A stretch of DNA of 64,000 nt from Bacilli bacterium (lineage in GTDB: Bacteria; Bacillota_I; Bacilli_A; RF39; UBA660), in NCBI GenBank assembly GCA_016283075.1, contig JAEEMF010000040.1, positions 470-64,469 on the forward strand, given 5' to 3'. The notes beneath the pieces were generated by a model. The model did no database searches. It saw only the letters and a list, made by a program, of their open reading frames with translations, and was not told the DNA's origin. The position numbers were made by a program, and so were the translations under genes. This document shows, in pieces, positions 31,801 through 38,448 of the stretch. How positions within the stretch are numbered: position 1 is the first letter of the stretch; each line of letters begins with the position of its first letter.

Positions 31801-31829
31801 TTAGTCAAATATTATTGACTAATTTTTTT
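31801..31829 (+). terminator. dtd intrinsic terminator
   Basis: TTAGTCAA-atatta-TTGACTAA hairpin followed by T7. Confidence 0.8.
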
Positions 31830-31849
31830 ATATACTTTATACTACTATT

Positions 31850-32044
31850 TAATATTTAGTAGTTTAAAAAGTTATTTATTAGGCATAGAGATAATGTGGC
31901 TGGTGTAAACATAACTAATGGTAGCTGTATATGGATCTACATAAAAAAATAATCGTATTTCTGCGTTAAAGAATAGAGTTAGATAAAATCTATAAAGTAA
32001 GGTGGTACCGCGTTCTAGGACGCCCTTATGCTATAGATTTTTTG
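31850..32044 (+). promoter_or_regulatory. T-box leader (tRNA-sensing riboswitch)
   Basis: Promoter TTGACT(31815)-17-TATACT(31838). Stem I elements AGAGA and GGUGUAA (GNUGNRA). T-box core AAGGUGGUACCGCG at 31999-32012 forms the canonical antiterminator TAAGG[UGGUACC]GCG-loop-CGCCCUUA. The outer helix AUCUAUA/UAUAGAU is followed by U6. Confidence 0.8.
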
Positions 32045-32063: not shown

Positions 32064-34046
32064 ATGGAAGAAGAATATGTTGGAACTTTATTTCAAAGAA
32101 TTAGATTAAGTGAAACATTATTTGTATATAAGCCAGTTAGTGCTTTAGATGGTTTTTTAATGACTATTTCTACTGATGATGCTAATATTCCAGATGACCC
32201 TAATGAAGATGAAAATGGATATTACTTTTTTACAGCAAATGGTTATTCTTATACACTACTTAGTAATGCTAATCAGTTTGATGAAGAATATGTAGTAGGT
32301 AACTTAAAACCAATAACTGAATTTGTAGATACAAGTGATGAAGTAGATTTAGATGAAGCATTAAATATATATTCAAATGAAACAGATAATGAAGTATACT
32401 TTGGTTCTACTGAAGATAATGCTAAATTAAAAATATTTAAAATAGAAAAAGACGAACTTATAGATGGTAATATGAGTTTTATTTCTTTTAATACTAGAAG
32501 TATATTTGATAATATCTTTAAAGAATTAGATACTAATAAAGAGAAAAAAATAGATGTAAAACTTGTTAAAGAGTTATTTCATATAGCAGAAAGTAATGTC
32601 TGCGCTTCAAAAGAATTAATTGGGTTAACAGCAACTACTCATGATTTTGAAGGAATACTTTCTTTCCTACATGATAAAGCAGAAGTTCTTACTAAATCAT
32701 TTTCAAATGATGAAGATATTAAAAACACATATGAATTCTTCGAAAACTATCTTACATCTTTTAGAAATATAAAAGATAATACATCTAAAGAAGTAGTAGC
32801 TCTTTATATAGAATTAATTAAACACTGTATTGATACTCATAAAGAAGATATAGATAAGCATATTGAGAATATTTGTAGATATTCTAACTATGAAAAGATA
32901 AAAGATGCTTTTGATGAATTAGAAGAATTTATTAGAAGTCATGAAAAGAGAACATATTCAGGTTTATATGAAAGATTAAATGAAGTTGTAATAGGACAAG
33001 AAGATGCTAAAAGAAATGTACTTGTATCTATCTTTAAAAGTGATAATGATGTTATAAATAAAAACAACTTATTACTAGTTGGTCCTTCTGGATCAGGTAA
33101 AACTTTAATAGCAGAAACATGTGCTGAATATTTAGACATTCCTTCTATAGTAGTTGATTCAACAACACTTTCTACTCCTGGTTATGTAGGACAAGATGTT
33201 GATCAGCAACTAGTTAGGCTTTTAGAAGCAGCAGGAGGAGACTTAGAAAAAGCCCAGAGGGGTATTATTATCTTTGATGAAATAGATAAAAAAGGATCAA
33301 AAGATAATGATGATGTATCTGGTAGAGGAGTTTTAAACTGCTTATTAGGATTTATAGAAGGAAGAAAATATCAACTTGTCTATAGAAATAGACTTGTTGA
33401 ATTTGATACTTCTAAACTTAAAATAATTATGACAGGTGCTTTTGCTAAAGTAGCAGAAGAACTAGTACTTGAAAATAAAAAAACTCATTATGGATTTATA
33501 TCAATAGATTCAAAAAATGAAGAAGTAAAAGTATCTTTATCTGATAAAGATATTACTACTAAAGGTGATATGCCTCCTGAATTTATTGGAAGAGTATTAA
33601 TAGTAAACTTAAGTAAATTAACTAAAGATAATGCTAAAGAATTAATGTATTATTCAGAAAGAAGTATTTTAAAAGATATATTTAATCTTTATATAAAATA
33701 TGATACAAAAGTATATTTTACTGAAGAATTTGTTGATGGTTTTATAAATTCTCTTTTTGATAATAAAGAAGATGAATTTGGTGCAAGAACTATTAATAAA
33801 AAAATATCTGAAGTACTTCTTTCAGCAGAATTCGAATTAATACTATCTTTAGATAAAGAAAATGGATACAAAGAAGTAGTAGTAGGAATAGAAGCACTTA
33901 CAGATCATAATAAAATATTATTTATATATGAAGATGGTACTTCAAAAGAACTTGGAGATATTATAAAAGAAGAGGAAGAAAAGAAGGCTAAAGCAAAAGC
34001 TATGAGAGATATACCAGAATTTATAAAAAGGAAGGTGAACCAGTAG
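32064..34046 (+). CDS. ClpX-family AAA+ ATPase paralog A, with a novel ~300-aa N-terminal region and no zinc-binding domain
   Basis: VIGQEDAKRNV; Walker A LLLVGPSGSGKTLIAE; pore-1 loop TPGYVGQDV; Walker B GIIIFDEIDK; DVSGRGVLNCLLGFIEG; DTSKLKIIMTGAFA; PPEFIGRV; GARTINK. All are collinear with E. coli ClpX motifs. Confidence 0.85.
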   Translation: MEEEYVGTLFQRIRLSETLFVYKPVSALDGFLMTISTDDANIPDDPNEDENGYYFFTANGYSYTLLSNANQFDEEYVVGNLKPITEFVDTSDEVDLDEALNIYSNETDNEVYFGSTEDNAKLKIFKIEKDELIDGNMSFISFNTRSIFDNIFKELDTNKEKKIDVKLVKELFHIAESNVCASKELIGLTATTHDFEGILSFLHDKAEVLTKSFSNDEDIKNTYEFFENYLTSFRNIKDNTSKEVVALYIELIKHCIDTHKEDIDKHIENICRYSNYEKIKDAFDELEEFIRSHEKRTYSGLYERLNEVVIGQEDAKRNVLVSIFKSDNDVINKNNLLLVGPSGSGKTLIAETCAEYLDIPSIVVDSTTLSTPGYVGQDVDQQLVRLLEAAGGDLEKAQRGIIIFDEIDKKGSKDNDDVSGRGVLNCLLGFIEGRKYQLVYRNRLVEFDTSKLKIIMTGAFAKVAEELVLENKKTHYGFISIDSKNEEVKVSLSDKDITTKGDMPPEFIGRVLIVNLSKLTKDNAKELMYYSERSILKDIFNLYIKYDTKVYFTEEFVDGFINSLFDNKEDEFGARTINKKISEVLLSAEFELILSLDKENGYKEVVVGIEALTDHNKILFIYEDGTSKELGDIIKEEEEKKAKAKAMRDIPEFIKRKVNQ

Positions 34047-36040
34047 TGGCAAAAAAAGAAGAAAGATATGCAATCCTTTATGATATAAATGCTGATGATG
34101 AATTCTATAGATATACACCAGTAGATGCTATAGAAGGTGAAATTATAAAAGAAGTAAGGAATGTATTTATAGATGGAGAGTGGGTTGATAAAGAAGTAGA
34201 TGTATTTGTTGCGTATGATAAAGATTTACATATTTATGAAAGATACGTAACTATGAAACACTCTGCAGAGCAAGATATGTGTGTAGGTAATATTATCACA
34301 CGTAAAGAACTTATCGAAAAATATCCTGATGTTAAAATACCACCAGGTGGCATTGGTCTTCAAGCGGAACTTCTTCATGCATTCTTCGAGGATTATAGAG
34401 ACTGTACTATTTGTAAACAAAGAGATTATTTTGATGATGAAGATGATTATGAAGAATCAACTTTTAAGTCTGACTGGTTACTTCAAGATCCTGAAAAGAT
34501 AACTTTAATTCGTTTACAAACTGCATGGGAATGTTCTTTTGATACAATTTCTGCATGTGAAGATGATGAAAAAATTTCTGAAGTATATGATTATCTAGTA
34601 GATATTTTAGATAGTATGTGTACTTATATTATGTGTTGTAAAGAACTTAGTGCAGTAGATAGAGAAAGTTATACAAATGCTTGCGATAATATAGCAAAAA
34701 GAATTATATATGCTAGTGATTTAACAGGGGTTCTTGAACAGGATAAAAAAATTGCTATGGAATTAAATAAAGAATTTAGAGCGTTATTTGATGATATAGC
34801 TGTTAAAACAGTAGAAGCTGCATCTTATATATTAAAAGAACCTAAGAAAGAAACAGCTACTGTTAAACCTTATAAAGATATAAATACTCTTTTAGGAAAT
34901 AGTAAGAAAACAAGACAAGAAATACTTGATGAACTTGATAAAACTGTTATTGGTCATGATGATGCTAAAATAAGATTACTTTCAGTAATTGAAAGTAACT
35001 CGACTATAGAACAAAAGAATAATATTGATGCAGTACTTTTAATAGGACCTTCTGGATGTGGTAAAACTCTTTTAGTAGAAACATTATCTAAGGTAATGGA
35101 TAAACCATTTGCATTAATTGATACTTTAGCTTTAACACCTGCTGGATATAAAGGTGTTGATCTTGAAAATGTATTAGCATTACAACTTTTAAGAAGTGCT
35201 AAAGGTGATGTTAAGAAAGCTGAAAGAGGAGTAGTATTCTTTGATGAATTTGATAAGAAAGCATCTACATCTGATAAAGAGTCAAATTTTGATAAAAGAA
35301 CTATTGATCAACTTTTAACATATATGTCTGGAACTAAATGTACTGTTGAGTATAATGGTAGAGATACTGAAGTAGATACAAGTTTTATTACATTTGTATT
35401 TGGTGGTTCATTTGCTGATATGATTAAGGCTATGATGGATAATAAAGAGAATGATGAATCATATAAAAGAACTACTATTGGTTTTATAAAAGATACTGCT
35501 AAAGAGATAAAAGATATTAATGAATATGATTTAAAATATCCAGAAAAAATTGAAGACGAGGATTTAGCAGTTCATGGTCATATGCGACCTGAAATGATTA
35601 ATAGAATTCCAACTAAGATAGTTATGCAAGGTGAAAATAGAATATCACTTAAAGATATTTTATTATATTCAACTGTTAGTCCTTTAGTATTTGAAGAAAA
35701 ACGTATTAACGCTAAGGGAGCTAATCTTGCTGTACTAGAAGAATTTATAGATCCTTTTGTAGAATCTGCATTTGGTAGAAAACAGTGTGGAAGATCTTTA
35801 AAAAATGGATTATTTCAAATAACAAGTCTTATTAATGATGTACTTGATGAATATCCAAGTAGATTTAAATATGCTGTACTTAATAAAGAATGCGTAAGTA
35901 ATCCTAGAGATGCTTTATTAATAGATTATGAAAATAATCGCTATACAGTAGGAGAACTTAAAGATGAAATTAAGAAAGCTAAAGAAGCTAAACCAAAAGA
36001 AAGTGTAATTAAAACTTATGCTTTTATACCTGAAAATTAG
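34046..36040 (+). CDS. ClpX-family AAA+ ATPase paralog B, more divergent, with a novel N-terminal region homologous to that of paralog A
   Basis: GTG start overlaps the upstream TAG (TAGTG) behind a GGAAGGTGA RBS. VIGHDDAKIRL; Walker A VLLIGPSGCGKTLLVE; pore loop PAGYKGVDL; Walker B GVVFFDEFDK; ITFVFGGSFA; TTIGF; RPEMINRIP; CGRSLKN. Confidence 0.85.
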   Translation: MAKKEERYAILYDINADDEFYRYTPVDAIEGEIIKEVRNVFIDGEWVDKEVDVFVAYDKDLHIYERYVTMKHSAEQDMCVGNIITRKELIEKYPDVKIPPGGIGLQAELLHAFFEDYRDCTICKQRDYFDDEDDYEESTFKSDWLLQDPEKITLIRLQTAWECSFDTISACEDDEKISEVYDYLVDILDSMCTYIMCCKELSAVDRESYTNACDNIAKRIIYASDLTGVLEQDKKIAMELNKEFRALFDDIAVKTVEAASYILKEPKKETATVKPYKDINTLLGNSKKTRQEILDELDKTVIGHDDAKIRLLSVIESNSTIEQKNNIDAVLLIGPSGCGKTLLVETLSKVMDKPFALIDTLALTPAGYKGVDLENVLALQLLRSAKGDVKKAERGVVFFDEFDKKASTSDKESNFDKRTIDQLLTYMSGTKCTVEYNGRDTEVDTSFITFVFGGSFADMIKAMMDNKENDESYKRTTIGFIKDTAKEIKDINEYDLKYPEKIEDEDLAVHGHMRPEMINRIPTKIVMQGENRISLKDILLYSTVSPLVFEEKRINAKGANLAVLEEFIDPFVESAFGRKQCGRSLKNGLFQITSLINDVLDEYPSRFKYAVLNKECVSNPRDALLIDYENNRYTVGELKDEIKKAKEAKPKESVIKTYAFIPEN

Positions 36041-36041
36041 G

Positions 36042-36070
36042 TTGACTTAATTAAAAAAAATAACTATAAT
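36042..36070 (+). promoter_or_regulatory. consensus-like sigma-A promoter between the ATPase pair and hisS
   Basis: TTGACT (36042-36047), an exact 17-nt spacer, then TATAAT (36065-36070). Confidence 0.6.
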
Positions 36071-36104
36071 TTATATGTAAATTATGTTATATAATTATTA
36101 CTTT

Positions 36105-36152
36105 AGTCTATGAAGTAAGGCTATATACCTTAGTTTATAGACTTTTGTTTTT
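36105..36152 (+). terminator. strong hairpin plus U-tract immediately upstream of hisS; a partial copy of the T-box terminator region
   Basis: AGTCTATGAAGTAAGG-ctatata-CCTTAGTTTATAGACT forms a 16-position stem with one mismatch, followed by TTTTGTTTTT. Both arms match the arms flanking the T-box core at 31987-32038. Confidence 0.75.
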
Positions 36153-36168
36153 AGAAAGAAGGAATATT

Positions 36169-37446
36169 ATGCAAAAACCTAAGGGAACATATGATGTATT
36201 TGGTGAAAGAGGAAAGAAAGAATTATATATTAGAGGATTAATGGAAACATTAATGAATAAATATAATTATGAGTATGTAGATACTCCTATCTTTGAAGCA
36301 AGTGAATTATTCCATAGAGGTGTAGGGGAAACTACTGATATCGTTACTAAAGAAACATATGACTTTGTAGATCGTGGAGAAAGAAACATGACTTTAAGAC
36401 CAGAAGGTACTGCTGGTGTAGTAAGAAGTTTTGTAGAAAACAAAATGTATGCTAGAGAATCTATGCCTGTTAAAGTATGGTACTTTGGACCAATGTTTAG
36501 ATACGAAAGACCACAATCTGGTAGATATAGACAATTCAAACAATTTGGTGTTGAAGTGTTTGGATCAGAAGATGCTTTAGTAGATGCAGAAGTAATTAGT
36601 ATTCCTGTAAATTTATATAAAATACTTGGTTTAAAAGGAATTAAAGTAAATATAAATTCACTAGGAGATAAAGAATCTAGAGAAAACTATAGAGAAGCTT
36701 TAATTAAACACTTTGAACCAGTAATCGATACATTATGTGAAGATTGTAAAGAAAGATTTAAAAAGAATCCTTTAAGAATCTTAGATTGTAAGATAGATGC
36801 AGATAAAGAAATAATGAAAACTGCACCTACTACAATTGATTACTTAAATGACGAAAGTAGAACACATTTTGAAAATGTTAAAAAATACTTAGAAGCACTT
36901 GGCATTGATTATGTAGTAAATCCAAGAGTTGTAAGAGGACTTGATTATTACACTCACACAGTATTTGAAGTAGAAGCAGATATTCCATCATTTGGAGCAC
37001 AAAATGTACTTTGTGGTGGAGGAAGATATAATGGTCTTGTTGAACAAGTAGGTGGGCCTAGTACAAATGGTGTAGGTTTTGCTCTTGGTTTTGAAAGATT
37101 AATTAATGCTTTAGAAGCTGAAAATATTGAACTACCATATGAAAAAGAAATAGATGCTTATGTAATACCAATGAGTGATAATGAAAAAGCATATGGATTT
37201 GATGTACTTCAAACACTTAGAATGTCAGGATTTAATGCTGATATAGATTACATGAGTCGTAAGATAGGCGGAAACTTTAAACAAGCTGATAGATTAAATT
37301 CTAAGTTTGTAATTATTATCGGTGAAGAAGAAACTAAATCTAATATTTTAACAATTAAAAATAATCGTACTAAAGAAGAATATAAAGTAAGCAAAGAACT
37401 TGTTATTGATTTCTTTGATGATAATTTAGAAAAAGAAGAACACTAA
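36169..37446 (+). CDS. hisS: histidine--tRNA ligase
   Basis: Class II aaRS motifs (MTLRPEGTAGVVR, FRYERPQSGRYRQFKQFG, GGGRYNGL). Start at 36169 follows a GAAGGAA RBS. Confidence 0.95.
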   Translation: MQKPKGTYDVFGERGKKELYIRGLMETLMNKYNYEYVDTPIFEASELFHRGVGETTDIVTKETYDFVDRGERNMTLRPEGTAGVVRSFVENKMYARESMPVKVWYFGPMFRYERPQSGRYRQFKQFGVEVFGSEDALVDAEVISIPVNLYKILGLKGIKVNINSLGDKESRENYREALIKHFEPVIDTLCEDCKERFKKNPLRILDCKIDADKEIMKTAPTTIDYLNDESRTHFENVKKYLEALGIDYVVNPRVVRGLDYYTHTVFEVEADIPSFGAQNVLCGGGRYNGLVEQVGGPSTNGVGFALGFERLINALEAENIELPYEKEIDAYVIPMSDNEKAYGFDVLQTLRMSGFNADIDYMSRKIGGNFKQADRLNSKFVIIIGEEETKSNILTIKNNRTKEEYKVSKELVIDFFDDNLEKEEH

Positions 37447-37468: not shown

Positions 37469-37529
37469 CTTTACACTCATACTTGTAAAGTCTCTTGGAA
37501 TAGATATATACATATGTTATAATATAATT

Positions 37530-37706
37530 GACTAAAAGATATGGTTGGAATTATTTGAAAAACCTACTAAAATAACGTATAGGGAATCTAATTTATATAT
37601 GGTGTTGAAAGCTTAACTTCGATTAAGAATCCTAAAGTATATAATGTGATACCCACCTGGGAGATCAGGTTTTATCGTTATGCCGCCGATTTTTTGGTCT
37701 TTTTTT
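37530..37706 (+). ncRNA. candidate 6S RNA (SsrS-like), about 177 nt
   Basis: Own promoter TTGGAA(37495)-17 nt containing TG-TATAAT(37518). The 5' end GACTAAAAGAT pairs with the 3' end ATTTTTTGGTC (11 bp). Further pairs are GGTTGG/CCGCC and AAAACCT/AGGTTTT, with an asymmetric central loop and a terminal arm TATAGGGAATCTAAT/ATTAAGAATCCTAAAGTATA, followed by a U-run. Its position between hisS and tcdA corresponds to B. subtilis 6S-1 (aspS-yrvM intergenic region). Confidence 0.4.
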
Positions 37707-37749
37707 TGTGTTAAAAACAAAGTATGTTATAATACCCTTAGGTGATGTT

Positions 37750-38448
37750 ATGTTAGAAAGATTAGAGTTATTAATAGGTGATAAAATAAATGATGTAAAA
37801 ACTAAAACCATCTTAATAGTAGGTGTTGGTGGAGTGGGCGGATATGCTTTAGAAGCTCTAGTTAGATCAGGTATTTCTAACATCATAATAGTTGATAACG
37901 ATAAAGTAGATATCACTAATCTTAATCGACAAATAATATCACTTAGATCCAATATTGGTGAATATAAAGTAGATGTTGCAGAAAAACGTATTAAAGATAT
38001 TAATCCTGATTGTAAGGTTACTAAATATAATTTATTTTTAAATAAAGATAATACATATGATTTATTTAAAGATAACAAAATAGATTATATAGTAGATGCT
38101 TGTGATACAATGGAAGTAAAGAAAGAATTAATAAGAATTGCAACTACCAGTGGTATTAAACTTATTTCTTCAATGGGTACTGGTAATAAACTTGATCCAT
38201 CTAAATTACAAATAATGGATTTAAGAAAGACTAGTTATGACCCAATAGCAAAAATACTTCGTAAATATGTTAAAGATATGCACATTAATAAAAAGGTAAT
38301 GGTTGTTTGTAGTACAGAAGCTGGAGTAAAAGAAAAGATTACAACTATTCCAAGTAATTCTTTTGTACCAGCAACTGCTGGATTATTATGTGCTAGTTAT
38401 ATAATAAATGATATAGTAGGTGATGTATGGAAAAATTCGATTTACTAG
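37750..38448 (+). CDS. tcdA: tRNA threonylcarbamoyladenosine dehydratase (ThiF/E1-like)
   Basis: ILIVGVGGVGGYALEALVRSGISNIIIVDNDKVDITNLNRQ nucleotide-binding motif, about 230 aa. ATG at 37750 follows an AGGTGA RBS and a TGTTATAAT extended -10. Confidence 0.8.
   Translation: MLERLELLIGDKINDVKTKTILIVGVGGVGGYALEALVRSGISNIIIVDNDKVDITNLNRQIISLRSNIGEYKVDVAEKRIKDINPDCKVTKYNLFLNKDNTYDLFKDNKIDYIVDACDTMEVKKELIRIATTSGIKLISSMGTGNKLDPSKLQIMDLRKTSYDPIAKILRKYVKDMHINKKVMVVCSTEAGVKEKITTIPSNSFVPATAGLLCASYIINDIVGDVWKNSIY

What the first reader, a model, noticed from the sequence alone, without database searches (positions are those of the whole stretch)
32064..36040. Translationally coupled pair of ClpX-family AAA+ paralogs with novel N-terminal domains, wedged into the conserved rel-dtd-hisS block
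Both ORFs (660 and 664 aa) carry a complete ClpX-type ATPase module in their C-terminal halves.
- Paralog A: GPSGSGKT, GYVG pore loop, IIFDEIDK, DVSGRGV, TGAFA, PEFIGR, GAR.
- Paralog B: GPSGCGKT, GYKG, VFFDEFDK, GGSFA, PEMINR, GRS.
- At the position of the ClpX IGF (ClpP-docking) loop, A reads YGF and B reads IGF.
- Neither has the C4 zinc-binding N-domain of ClpX. Each has about 300 aa of acidic/helical sequence that I cannot assign to any family.
- The two N-regions are related to each other (FVYKPVSALDG vs YRYTPVDAIEG; EEYVVGNLKPI vs QDMCVGNIITR), so the whole two-domain architecture was duplicated.
- The genes overlap by one base (TAGTG), which suggests stoichiometric co-expression and possibly a hetero-oligomeric ring.
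- They sit where B. subtilis-like genomes go straight from dtd and the T-box leader into hisS, so they look like an insertion that has captured an amino-acid-starvation-responsive leader.
I know of no described ClpX paralog pair with this architecture or regulation.
Basis: partly seen in the sequence, partly recalled or inferred. Interest (0 to 1): 0.88.

Follow-up and report, generated by a model that had tools for sequence, protein, structure and literature searches.

The report
T-box-controlled ClpX-like unfoldase pair
Two back-to-back genes encode ClpX-type protein unfoldases that have lost ClpX's usual recognition parts, carry an N-terminal domain unlike any known structure, and sit behind a tRNA-sensing T-box switch next to hisS; the family is common in uncultured gut Bacilli and has never been studied.

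Summary
Genes A (32064-34046) and B (34046-36040) overlap by one base (TAGTG) and lie between rel-dtd and hisS.

- **What they are.** Both are ClpX-derived AAA+ proteins but score far below the ClpX equivalog cut-off. They lack the zinc finger and the RKH loop, and the pore-2 loop is shortened. They keep the pore-1 tyrosine, the Arg finger, the sensor-2 Arg and an IGF-type loop, which suggests they dock on ClpP.
- **N-terminal domain.** Both share a homologous, acidic domain of about 130 aa. Its predicted fold is confident and has no match in Pfam, PDB or BFVD.
- **Not a one-off insertion.** The family occurs in at least 227 GTDB species of uncultured gut Bacilli, annotated only as "AAA family ATPase". 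About a fifth of the loci have hisS immediately downstream, and most of those carry a T-box upstream (T-box, NTD-AAA+ gene or genes, hisS, aspS). That T-box reads Asp (GAC or GAU), not His.
- **This window.** The specifier loop is non-canonical and aspS is absent. hisS has its own promoter plus what looks like a decayed T-box.
- **Shared domain.** The same N-domain is fused to SpoVK/CbbX-type ATPases that end in a C-terminal IGF tail.

Not tested: presence of ClpP, hetero-oligomer formation, substrates.

The parts
31801..31829 (+). AT-rich hairpin (TTAGTCAA/TTGACTAA) plus T-run just after dtd; probable dtd terminator
   Evidence: Read directly from the sequence. The terminator scan missed it because it has fewer than 3 G-C pairs.
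31815..31843 (+). Promoter-like site TTGACT-17-TATACT ahead of the T-box leader
   Evidence: 10 of 12 matches.
31853..32030 (+). T-box leader. AG bulge (AGAGA), distal loop (GGCUGGUGUAA), Stem III and the T-box sequence are conserved. The specifier loop is non-canonical: its 3' half reads GUAUAUGGAU.
   Evidence: RF00230 62.5 bits, E 2.5e-13, below the gathering score of 93. nhmmer with a profile of related leaders: E 1.1e-35. Nearly identical in L001.
31999..32012 (+). T-box sequence AAGGTGGTACCGCG (tRNA acceptor-end pairing site / antiterminator)
31988..32044 (+). Leader terminator helix (ATCTATA...TAAGG / CCTTA...TATAGAT) followed by a T-run
   Evidence: Read from the sequence and from the cmscan alignment.
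32064..34046 (+). Gene A, 660 aa. NTD aa 1-135 (nt 32064-32468); helical linker aa 136-295; ClpX-like AAA+ aa 296-625 (nt 32949-33938); basic C-terminal tail.
   Evidence: Motif positions: Walker A nt 33081-33104, GYVG 33180-33191, Walker B 33267-33290, YGF 33489-33497.
34046..36040 (+). Gene B, 664 aa, GTG start overlapping the A stop by 1 nt. NTD aa 1-130; Cys-rich acidic linker; divergent ClpX-like AAA+ aa 286-625 with GYKG pore-1, the pore-2 DVSG motif lost, and IGF at nt 35477-35485.
   Evidence: dN/dS 0.44 against L001.
36042..36070 (+). Promoter-like site TTGACT-17-TATAAT between B and hisS
   Evidence: 11 of 12 matches, the best in the region. Identical in L001.
36105..36152 (+). Hairpin AGTCTATGAAGTAAGG/CCTTAGTTTATAGACT plus U-run in the hisS leader. 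It aligns with the terminator half of the upstream T-box leader with the T-box core missing, so it looks like a decayed second T-box. It is the probable terminator of the A-B transcript.
   Evidence: local alignment, RNAfold. No Rfam hit in this region.
36169..37446 (+). hisS. The likely start is ATG 36169, not the TTG 36145 listed mechanically.
   Evidence: TIGR00442 495.9 bits against a cut-off of 286.75. The N-terminus MQKPKGTYDV matches relatives.

Best explanation
A and B are two paralogous subunits of a lineage-specific, ClpX-derived AAA+ unfoldase found in uncultured low-GC gut Bacilli.

**Shown**
- Each protein has a complete ClpX-type ATPase motor: Walker A and B, pore-1 tyrosine, Arg finger and sensor-2 Arg.
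- Each lacks the parts canonical ClpX uses to recognise adaptors and degrons. The C4 zinc finger and the RKH loop are absent, and the pore-2 loop is shortened.
- In their place is a conserved, acidic alpha/beta N-domain of about 130 aa with no detectable known fold, followed by a variable helical linker.
- The two genes are translationally coupled.
- They are transcribed from their own promoter through a T-box leader.

**Inferred**
- The motors dock on ClpP through the retained IGF-type loop.
- The N-domain selects a dedicated substrate, adaptor or cellular location.
- Expression rises when the cognate tRNA is uncharged. That tRNA is Asp in relatives and unassigned here. This would tie targeted unfolding or proteolysis to amino-acid starvation, alongside hisS and aspS.
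- B, with its altered pore loops, may act as a specialised partner of A. This could be in a mixed ring or through NTD/linker contacts. It is the weakest step.
For: **ClpX-type motor**
- NCBIfam ClpX is the best hit over the whole module, and ClpX structures are the best PDB hits.
- Across 82 family members, the pore-1 tyrosine is present in 80 (GYVG in 63), the DE of Walker B in 79, the Arg finger in all the common variants listed, and the sensor-2 Arg in at least 78.

**ClpP docking**
- The tripeptide at the IGF position is x-G-F in 77 of 82 members (IGF in 51). A has YGF and B has IGF.
- An unrelated SpoVK/CbbX-type ATPase that carries the same NTD ends in a C-terminal ...IGF tail in 8 of 9 cases.

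**New recognition module**
- No zf-C4_ClpX domain. The RKH loop is deleted family-wide.
- NTD model: pLDDT 89, pTM 0.82. No Foldseek hit at E<=1e-3 in PDB or BFVD.
- No Pfam or PDB sequence hit.
- The NTD is always N-terminal, in 542 clusters.
- The B-type NTD is homologous to the family NTD.
- Substitutions between the window and its 91%-identical relative (gene A; 88% for B) concentrate in the NTD and linker.

**Both genes are functional**
- dN/dS is 0.30 for A and 0.44 for B.
- B-type ORFs are intact in 4 loci: the window, L001, L002 and L019.

**T-box control**
- Leader anatomy.
- Related leaders directly precede NTD-AAA+ genes in 15 other distinct loci.
- In L024 the unfoldase gene keeps its own T-box although hisS has a separate one.
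- In this window the T-box serves A-B, while hisS has a separate promoter.
Against: - No clpP was found in the window or in about 650 kb of related loci. Its presence in these genomes is untested.
- The window's T-box scores below Rfam's gathering threshold, and its specifier loop cannot be read with confidence.
- 65 of the 80 species loci have no hisS immediately downstream, and none of those has a T-box ahead of the AAA+ gene. Starvation control is therefore not a family-wide property and could be a passenger effect of operon position.
- Nothing shows that A and B interact.
- The NTD's binding partner is unknown.
Confidence: 0.55

Rival explanations
1. Housekeeping replacement. The family is simply this lineage's only ClpX, with the N-domain swapped. 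The T-box link is a by-product of sitting in the hisS-aspS operon and has no regulatory meaning for the unfoldase.
For: - No canonical clpX is in the window or in any fetched locus.
- Most family members have no T-box.
- The ancestral leader reads Asp, matching aspS in the same operon.
Against: - L024 keeps a full-scoring T-box (92.6 bits) in front of the unfoldase gene alone. Its specifier is different (GUA-G), and hisS-aspS has its own Asp T-box.
- In the window the T-box stayed with A-B while the hisS copy decayed.
- Loss of the RKH loop and the zinc finger means canonical ClpX substrate recognition (ssrA, SspB) is unlikely to be retained.
- A and B evolve 4-10 times faster in dN/dS than rel and hisS, which is unusual for a sole housekeeping ClpX.
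- Some genomes carry two or three NTD-AAA+ genes.
Confidence: 0.25
2. ClpP-independent remodelling machine. A and B act as a stand-alone unfoldase or disaggregase for a specific complex, as ClpX does in its chaperone role or as ClpP-less mitochondrial Mcx1 does.
For: - clpP was not seen anywhere in the data at hand.
- SpoVK/CbbX-type partners with the same NTD belong to a class that normally works without a peptidase.
Against: - x-G-F is conserved at the IGF-loop position in 77 of 82 members.
- A C-terminal IGF tail has appeared independently on the SpoVK-type partners. Both are hard to explain without a ClpP-like docking pocket.
Confidence: 0.2
3. B is a decaying duplicate with no function of its own.
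For: - B has lost the pore-2 DVSG motif and has GYKG in pore-1.
- It has few detectable homologues.
- Its dN/dS is the highest in the region.
Against: - dN/dS is 0.44-0.46 against relatives at 88% and 60% identity, so selection is purifying.
- The ORF is intact, with Walker A and B, Arg finger, sensor-2 and IGF retained.
- The one-base overlap with A is conserved in L001.
- A B-type gene also follows an A-type gene in the distant locus L019.
Confidence: 0.07
4. Mobile or anti-phage defence module inserted next to hisS.
For: - A and B evolve faster than their neighbours.
- There are weak generic AAA matches to PADLOC IetA/DolB models.
Against: - The PADLOC matches are at most 35 bits and cover only the P-loop region.
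- Synteny lies inside core housekeeping operons and is conserved across many species.
- No integrase or other mobility genes were seen.
Confidence: 0.03

Closest known systems
Bacterial ClpX (NCBIfam NF003745 / TIGR00382; e.g. PDB 6vfs, 6po1)
   Same: - Single AAA+ module of the ClpX/HslU clade
- Walker A and B
- GYVG pore-1 loop (A)
- Arg finger and sensor-2 Arg
- IGF-type loop at the same position
- 31-34% identity over about 330 aa
   Different: - No C4 zinc-binding N-domain
- RKH loop deleted and pore-2 loop shortened
- About 300 aa of new N-terminal sequence (NTD plus helical linker), and a C-terminal extension in long forms
- Scores are half the equivalog cut-off
- Forms a separate clade on a long stem
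HslU (ClpY)
   Same: Sister AAA+ clade. It is the second-best NCBIfam and PDB hit.
   Different: - Scores are 74 and 47 bits against a cut-off of 362
- The matches cover mainly the first ~90-170 residues of the AAA+ module; no I-domain match was seen
- An IGF loop is present rather than C-terminal tail docking
Mitochondrial CLPX / Mcx1
   Same: A ClpX motor with a lineage-specific N-terminal extension. PDB hits 9ykx and 9dvy at E ~1e-28.
   Different: The N-terminal regions are unrelated. The organisms are bacterial. No sequence relationship was detected outside the AAA+ core.
T-box-regulated hisS-aspS operon of Bacillota (RF00230)
   Same: - rel-dtd-[T-box]-hisS(-aspS) synteny
- Leader with Stem I platform, Stem III, T-box sequence and terminator
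   Different: - One or two AAA+ genes lie between the leader and hisS
- The specifier is Asp in relatives and unreadable here
- aspS is missing from this window
- hisS has a separate promoter and a T-box remnant
SpoVK / CbbX / EccA-type AAA+ (TIGR02881, TIGR02880)
   Same: In related loci the partner gene of the pair has this ATPase type: 203 bits to SpoVK, plus AAA_lid_6.
   Different: It carries the same NTD as A and B and ends in a C-terminal IGF tail. It is not present in this window, where the partner is the B-type ClpX-like protein.

Membership tests
ClpX (NF003745 / TIGR00382 equivalog) | Whole-protein score above the curated equivalog cut-off | tested here: not met
   A scores 180.4 and 156.3 bits; B scores 155.1 and 133.1 bits. 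The cut-offs are 359 and 370.75.
ClpX (NF003745 / TIGR00382 equivalog) | N-terminal C4 zinc-binding domain (PF06689) | tested here: not met
   No PF06689 hit in A or B at E<=1. The N-terminus is occupied by the NTD.
ClpX (NF003745 / TIGR00382 equivalog) | AAA+ motor residues: Walker A and B, pore-1 aromatic, Arg finger, sensor-2 Arg | tested here: met
   All are present in A and B. B has GYKG instead of GYVG.
ClpX (NF003745 / TIGR00382 equivalog) | RKH loop and full-length pore-2 loop | tested here: not met
   PPQGGRKHPQQ is deleted and pore-2 is shortened by about 4 residues in the whole family. B has also lost DVSG.
ClpX (NF003745 / TIGR00382 equivalog) | IGF loop for ClpP docking | tested here: met
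   A has YGF and B has IGF at the aligned position. x-G-F is found in 77 of 82 family members.
ClpX (NF003745 / TIGR00382 equivalog) | ClpP partner encoded in the genome; ClpP-dependent degradation | not testable with these tools
   No clpP is in the window or in the fetched loci.
HslU | Equivalog score and I-domain insertion | tested here: not met
   73.7 and 47.2 bits against a cut-off of 362.45. The best stretches cover only the first ~100 positions of the 441-position model, i.e. the P-loop region.
T-box leader (RF00230) | Score at or above the Rfam gathering threshold | tested here: not met
   62.5 bits against 93. Nine of the ten related leaders shown score 93-117 bits (L024b scores 90.5).
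T-box leader (RF00230) | Conserved T-box sequence, Stem I distal platform, Stem III, and terminator/antiterminator alternative | tested here: met
   AAGGUGGUACCGCG, AGAGA, the GGCUGGUGUAA loop, and a terminator helix plus U-run are all present. A lineage profile gives E 1e-35.
T-box leader (RF00230) | Specifier loop with S-turn (GAA), codon and trailing purine next to the lower stem | tested here: inconclusive
   The 3' half of the loop is GUAUAUGGAU. Different registers give UAU, AUG, GGA or GAU. No CAY is present.
Known anti-phage defence ATPases (PADLOC) | Significant full-length match to a defence-system model | tested here: not met
   Only P-loop-level matches of at most 35 bits.

The most novel reading that the evidence does not exclude
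The NTD is a new targeting fold. It has been attached to two unrelated AAA+ motor classes: ClpX-like, with an internal IGF loop, and SpoVK/CbbX-like, with a C-terminal IGF tail. Pairs of such motors would form a dedicated, ClpP-coupled degradation machine, possibly a mixed A/B ring. Its synthesis would be gated directly by uncharged tRNA through a T-box. That would be the first T-box-controlled protease system, linking tRNA charging to targeted proteolysis in auxotrophic, genome-reduced gut Bacilli. Its role could be to recycle amino acids or to remodel the translation apparatus.
Probability: 0.2. Interest if true: 0.85.

Novelty: new variant of a known kind. Interest (0 to 1): 0.62.

Why it matters
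- **ClpX specificity.** ClpX is one of the best-understood unfoldases, and its specificity elements (zinc finger, RKH loop, pore-2) are textbook. Here a large, unstudied branch has discarded all three, kept the ClpP-docking loop, and gained a fold with no known relative. It is a natural experiment in how AAA+ proteases are re-targeted.
- **T-box regulons.** Known T-box regulons contain aminoacyl-tRNA synthetase, amino-acid biosynthesis and transport genes. A T-box that drives an unfoldase would add regulated proteolysis to the tRNA-charging response.
- **The host organisms.** They are abundant but uncultured gut and rumen Bacilli with reduced genomes, in which protein turnover may be a major source of amino acids.

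Tried and rejected
- **BLASTP of A against B.** It found no N-terminal similarity. Only profile comparison did.
- **Foldseek with the 300-aa model.** The PDB and BFVD searches and the PDB search with the compact NTD model gave no match at E<=1e-3. The top hits (proteasome subunits, Siglec domains, 14-3-3) have TM<=0.27 normalised to the query (TMq) and I treat them as noise.
- **Family and sequence searches on the NTD.** Pfam on 27 NTDs gave only scattered single hits. The PDB profile search gave nothing.
- **Defence system.** PADLOC gave only P-loop matches, so I rejected this reading.
- **clpP, canonical clpX and aspS.** tblastn of the window and all loci found none. This says nothing about the rest of the genome.
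- **Organism identity.** Looking up protein A found only a 6-kb metagenome contig.
- **Literature.** Searches for ClpX plus T-box or hisS, ClpX paralogs, IGF motifs, and RF39 or Tenericutes found nothing on this family.
- **Exact-pattern scan for the T-box.** It missed leaders that the profile scan later found.
- **Upstream gene in L033, L082 and L028.** I considered whether it is clpC, which would imply ClpP. It lacks the VGF loop, so it is clpB.
- **His specifier.** I considered it because CAY overlaps GAC in relatives. I rejected it because the Y of CAY falls in the lower stem and GAC-A fits the canonical GAA-NNN-A register.

Full report
**1. The observation**

Two ORFs lie on the + strand at the stated coordinates. 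A is 32064-34046 (ATG, 660 aa) and B is 34046-36040 (GTG, 664 aa). The A stop and the B start share one base (CAG TAG TGG), and a GGAAGGTGA Shine-Dalgarno sequence lies just upstream.

Upstream are rel and dtd. dtd matches TIGR00256 at 185.6 bits against a cut-off of 101.5. Downstream is hisS, matching TIGR00442 at 495.9 bits against a cut-off of 286.75. hisS is followed by a 6S RNA gene, not by aspS. The window is 27.8% G+C.

**2. What the proteins are**

Both C-terminal halves are ClpX-type AAA+ modules.
- NCBIfam ClpX is the best model over its whole length, but the scores are half the equivalog cut-off: 180 and 155 bits against 359.
- ClpX structures are the best PDB matches, at E 7e-37.
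- HslU is a distant second.
- Pfam finds only AAA_2 and AAA, with no zf-C4_ClpX.
- The two motors are 33% identical.

An alignment with canonical ClpX and motif counts over 82 family members show the following.
- **Conserved:** Walker A and B, the pore-1 tyrosine (GYVG in 63 of 82; A has GYVG, B has GYKG), the Arg finger, the sensor-2 Arg, and an x-G-F tripeptide at the IGF-loop position (77 of 82; A has YGF, B has IGF).
- **Lost or shortened:** the RKH loop (PPQGGRKHPQQ) is deleted, and the pore-2 loop is about 4 residues shorter. B has also lost the DVSG motif.

So the motor and the ClpP-docking element are kept. All three canonical ClpX recognition elements (zinc finger, RKH, pore-2) are lost or altered.

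**3. The N-terminal region**

- A conserved N-domain (NTD) of about 130 aa opens every family member. Its consensus runs roughly Y-[GA]-I-L-M-x-R ... Y-x-P ... E-G ... F-x-D-x-x-G-x-E-Y ... V-G ... L-x-x-x-Y ... E-A.
- BLASTP does not link the N-regions of A and B. hhalign of a B-type NTD profile against the family NTD gives 96.8% probability, E 3e-10.
- AlphaFold2 with a 27-sequence alignment gives a confident beta-rich alpha/beta domain for residues 1-133 (NTD-only model: pLDDT 89, pTM 0.82). Residues 136-300 form a low-confidence helical region.
- Foldseek found no match at E<=1e-3 in PDB or BFVD with either model. Pfam and PDB sequence profiles found nothing.
- A's NTD is strongly acidic, with pI 4.05. 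That argues against direct RNA binding.

**4. Distribution**

- A has many homologues of 500-760 aa with the same layout. Those that carry a name are called only 'AAA family ATPase [Bacilli bacterium]'.
- A family-specific pattern scan of GTDB species genomes confirmed 227 relatives. The 80 that were fetched come from uncultured 'Bacilli', 'Tenericutes', 'Mycoplasmatota' and 'Erysipelotrichaceae' MAGs from human, rabbit, ruminant, chicken and mouse guts, and include Clostridium sp. CAG:451.
- An NTD profile search of 1.84 billion representative proteins found 542 clusters. In every listed hit the match is at the N-terminus.
- B-type proteins are rare. I found one 58%-identical homologue (P0121), the copy in L001, and a distant B-type second gene in L019.
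- In an NJ tree the family is monophyletic against ClpX on a long stem. This tree is suggestive only, because it has no support values.

**5. Genomic context**

- **hisS linkage.** hisS lies immediately downstream in 15 of the 80 species loci, usually followed by aspS. Other recurrent contexts are yqeY-nudix-X-rplS-lepB and murL-murD-X.
- **T-box.** A T-box leader sits directly upstream of the NTD-AAA+ gene or genes in the window, L001, L003, L010/L031, L011, L012, L022, L024, L028, L030, L033, L036, L042, L052, L056, L074 and L082. Rfam scores are 93-117 bits for most.
- **Age of the arrangement.** The hisS- and T-box-linked members fall in several clades. The arrangement T-box, X, hisS, aspS is therefore old, not an insertion peculiar to this genome.
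- **Recurring pairs.** There are two kinds.
  - A-type followed by B-type: the window, L001 and L019.
  - An NTD fused to a SpoVK/CbbX-type ATPase, followed by a ClpX-like member: L028, L033, L082 and L092.
- **SpoVK-fused partners.** Their NTD is homologous to the family NTD (98.2%, E 2.8e-14). They end in ...IGF...LGF or ...IGFxx in 8 of 9 cases seen. I read this as a second, independent route to a ClpP-type docking motif.

**6. The leader**

The window leader has these parts, in order:
- a promoter-like site at 31815-31843;
- a Stem I distal platform;
- Stem III;
- the T-box sequence AAGGUGGUACCGCG at 31999-32012;
- a terminator helix plus U-run.

It scores 62.5 bits, below Rfam's 93, mainly because of Stem I. 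A profile of related leaders matches it at E 1e-35.

In 15 related leaders the specifier loop reads GAA(A)-GAC-A (13 leaders) or GAU-A (2 leaders), directly next to the lower stem. That is Asp. The overlapping CAY cannot be the codon, because its last base pairs in the stem.

The window's loop is non-canonical (GUAUAUGGAU) and is the same in L001. Depending on register it gives UAU, AUG, GGA or GAU. GAU is the reading most consistent with homology. None of the readings is His.

Two observations suggest that the T-box matters for the unfoldase genes themselves.
- L024 has a full T-box before the unfoldase gene with a different specifier (GUA-G), and a second Asp T-box before hisS-aspS.
- In the window the T-box stayed with A-B. 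The hisS leader has an 11/12 promoter (36042-36070) and a hairpin plus U-run (36105-36152) that aligns with the terminator half of the T-box leader with the T-box core deleted.

**7. Selection**

I compared the window with the related contig L001, where dS is about 0.09-0.15.
- dN/dS is 0.30 for A and 0.44 for B, against 0.04 for rel and 0.07 for hisS.
- Substitutions concentrate in the NTD and linker, at 11-24 per 100 aa, against 4.5-7 per 100 aa in the AAA+ module.

Both genes are under purifying selection, so neither is a pseudogene. Their recognition regions evolve fast.

**8. Interpretation**

*Shown*
- A ClpX-derived motor pair with a new, shared N-domain.
- Translational coupling.
- Their own promoter plus a T-box leader.
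- Membership of a widespread, unannotated family with an old link to hisS-aspS.

*Inferred*
- ClpP docking, from the IGF conservation and from the IGF tails on the SpoVK-type partners.
- The NTD as a targeting module.
- Induction by an uncharged tRNA.

*Speculative*
- An A/B mixed ring.
- A role in starvation-linked proteolysis.

*Not established*
- Whether clpP or a canonical clpX exists in these genomes. None is present in the data available.
- What the NTD binds.
- Which tRNA the window's leader reads.

**9. Comparison and novelty**

The pair works like ClpX in its motor and probably in docking. It fails the ClpX membership tests that concern recognition: zinc finger, RKH loop and equivalog score. 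It is not HslU, and it is not a known defence ATPase.

I found no paper on the family or on a T-box-controlled Clp ATPase.

I class it as a new variant of a known kind: a distinct, widespread ClpX-like subfamily with a novel N-domain and, in part of its range, T-box control.

Noticed in passing
window 36041-36168: The hisS leader holds a near-consensus promoter (TTGACT-17-TATAAT) followed by a hairpin and U-run. It aligns with the 3' half of the upstream T-box leader with the T-box core deleted, so it looks like a decayed second T-box. It differs at 1 of 128 nt from L001, although the flanking genes A and B differ at 9-12% of residues. How hisS transcripts pass this terminator-like hairpin is unexplained.
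   Followed up: partly
L033 1170-2636; L028 1133-2596; L082 1185-2639; L092 1101-2543; also P0275, P0296, P0344, P0353, P0358: Proteins with the same N-domain fused to a SpoVK/CbbX-type AAA+ module (203 bits to TIGR02881, plus AAA_lid_6) end in a C-terminal ...IGF, ...LGF or ...IGFxx tail. They are encoded directly upstream of a ClpX-like family member and hisS. This may be a new class of ClpP partner.
   Followed up: partly
L024 1830-2010 and 4330-4515: One species has two complete T-boxes in the operon. The one before the ClpX-like gene reads GUA-G at the specifier position (Val?). The one before hisS-aspS reads GAC-A (Asp).
   Followed up: partly
L092 923-1100: In the closest outside relative of A (P0003), the leader of the NTD-SpoVK-like, ClpX-like, hisS operon has no T-box. 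It has an 'AAAAAAAATAACGTATAAT' promoter-like stretch plus a GC-rich hairpin and U-run, much like the window's hisS leader. T-box decay into a promoter-plus-hairpin leader may be recurrent.
   Followed up: no
window 32064-36040 vs L001 10001-13986: A and B evolve much faster than their neighbours at similar dS: dN/dS 0.30 and 0.44 against 0.04 for rel and 0.07 for hisS. Changes concentrate in the NTD and linker.
   Followed up: yes
window 36145-36171: The mechanically listed TTG start of hisS (36145) lies inside the U-run of the leader hairpin. ATG 36169, which gives MQKPKGTYDV with an upstream AGAAGGA, is the likely start.
   Followed up: yes
window 37526-37704: A 6S RNA gene (76.8 bits) follows hisS at the position where relatives have aspS. 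aspS is absent from the whole 64-kb window. The ThiF-family gene at 37708-38448 follows the 6S gene directly.
   Followed up: partly
L067 and L076 (both from assembly CALVYD01, BRZ_GP__bin21): One genome carries two unlinked family members, a short form (554 aa) and a long form (710 aa). Short and long subfamilies can therefore coexist as old paralogs.
   Followed up: no
L031, L044, L061, L066, L068, L069: Several GTDB records titled 'uncultured Muribaculaceae bacterium' carry Bacillota-type content: T-box leaders, rel-hisS-aspS synteny and this family. The record titles are probably mislabelled.
   Followed up: no
window 34346-34690 (B aa 101-215): The linker of B is rich in cysteine: 8 Cys between residues 120 and 213, including CTIC and MCC. 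A's linker has three Cys. No metal-binding family was matched.
   Followed up: no
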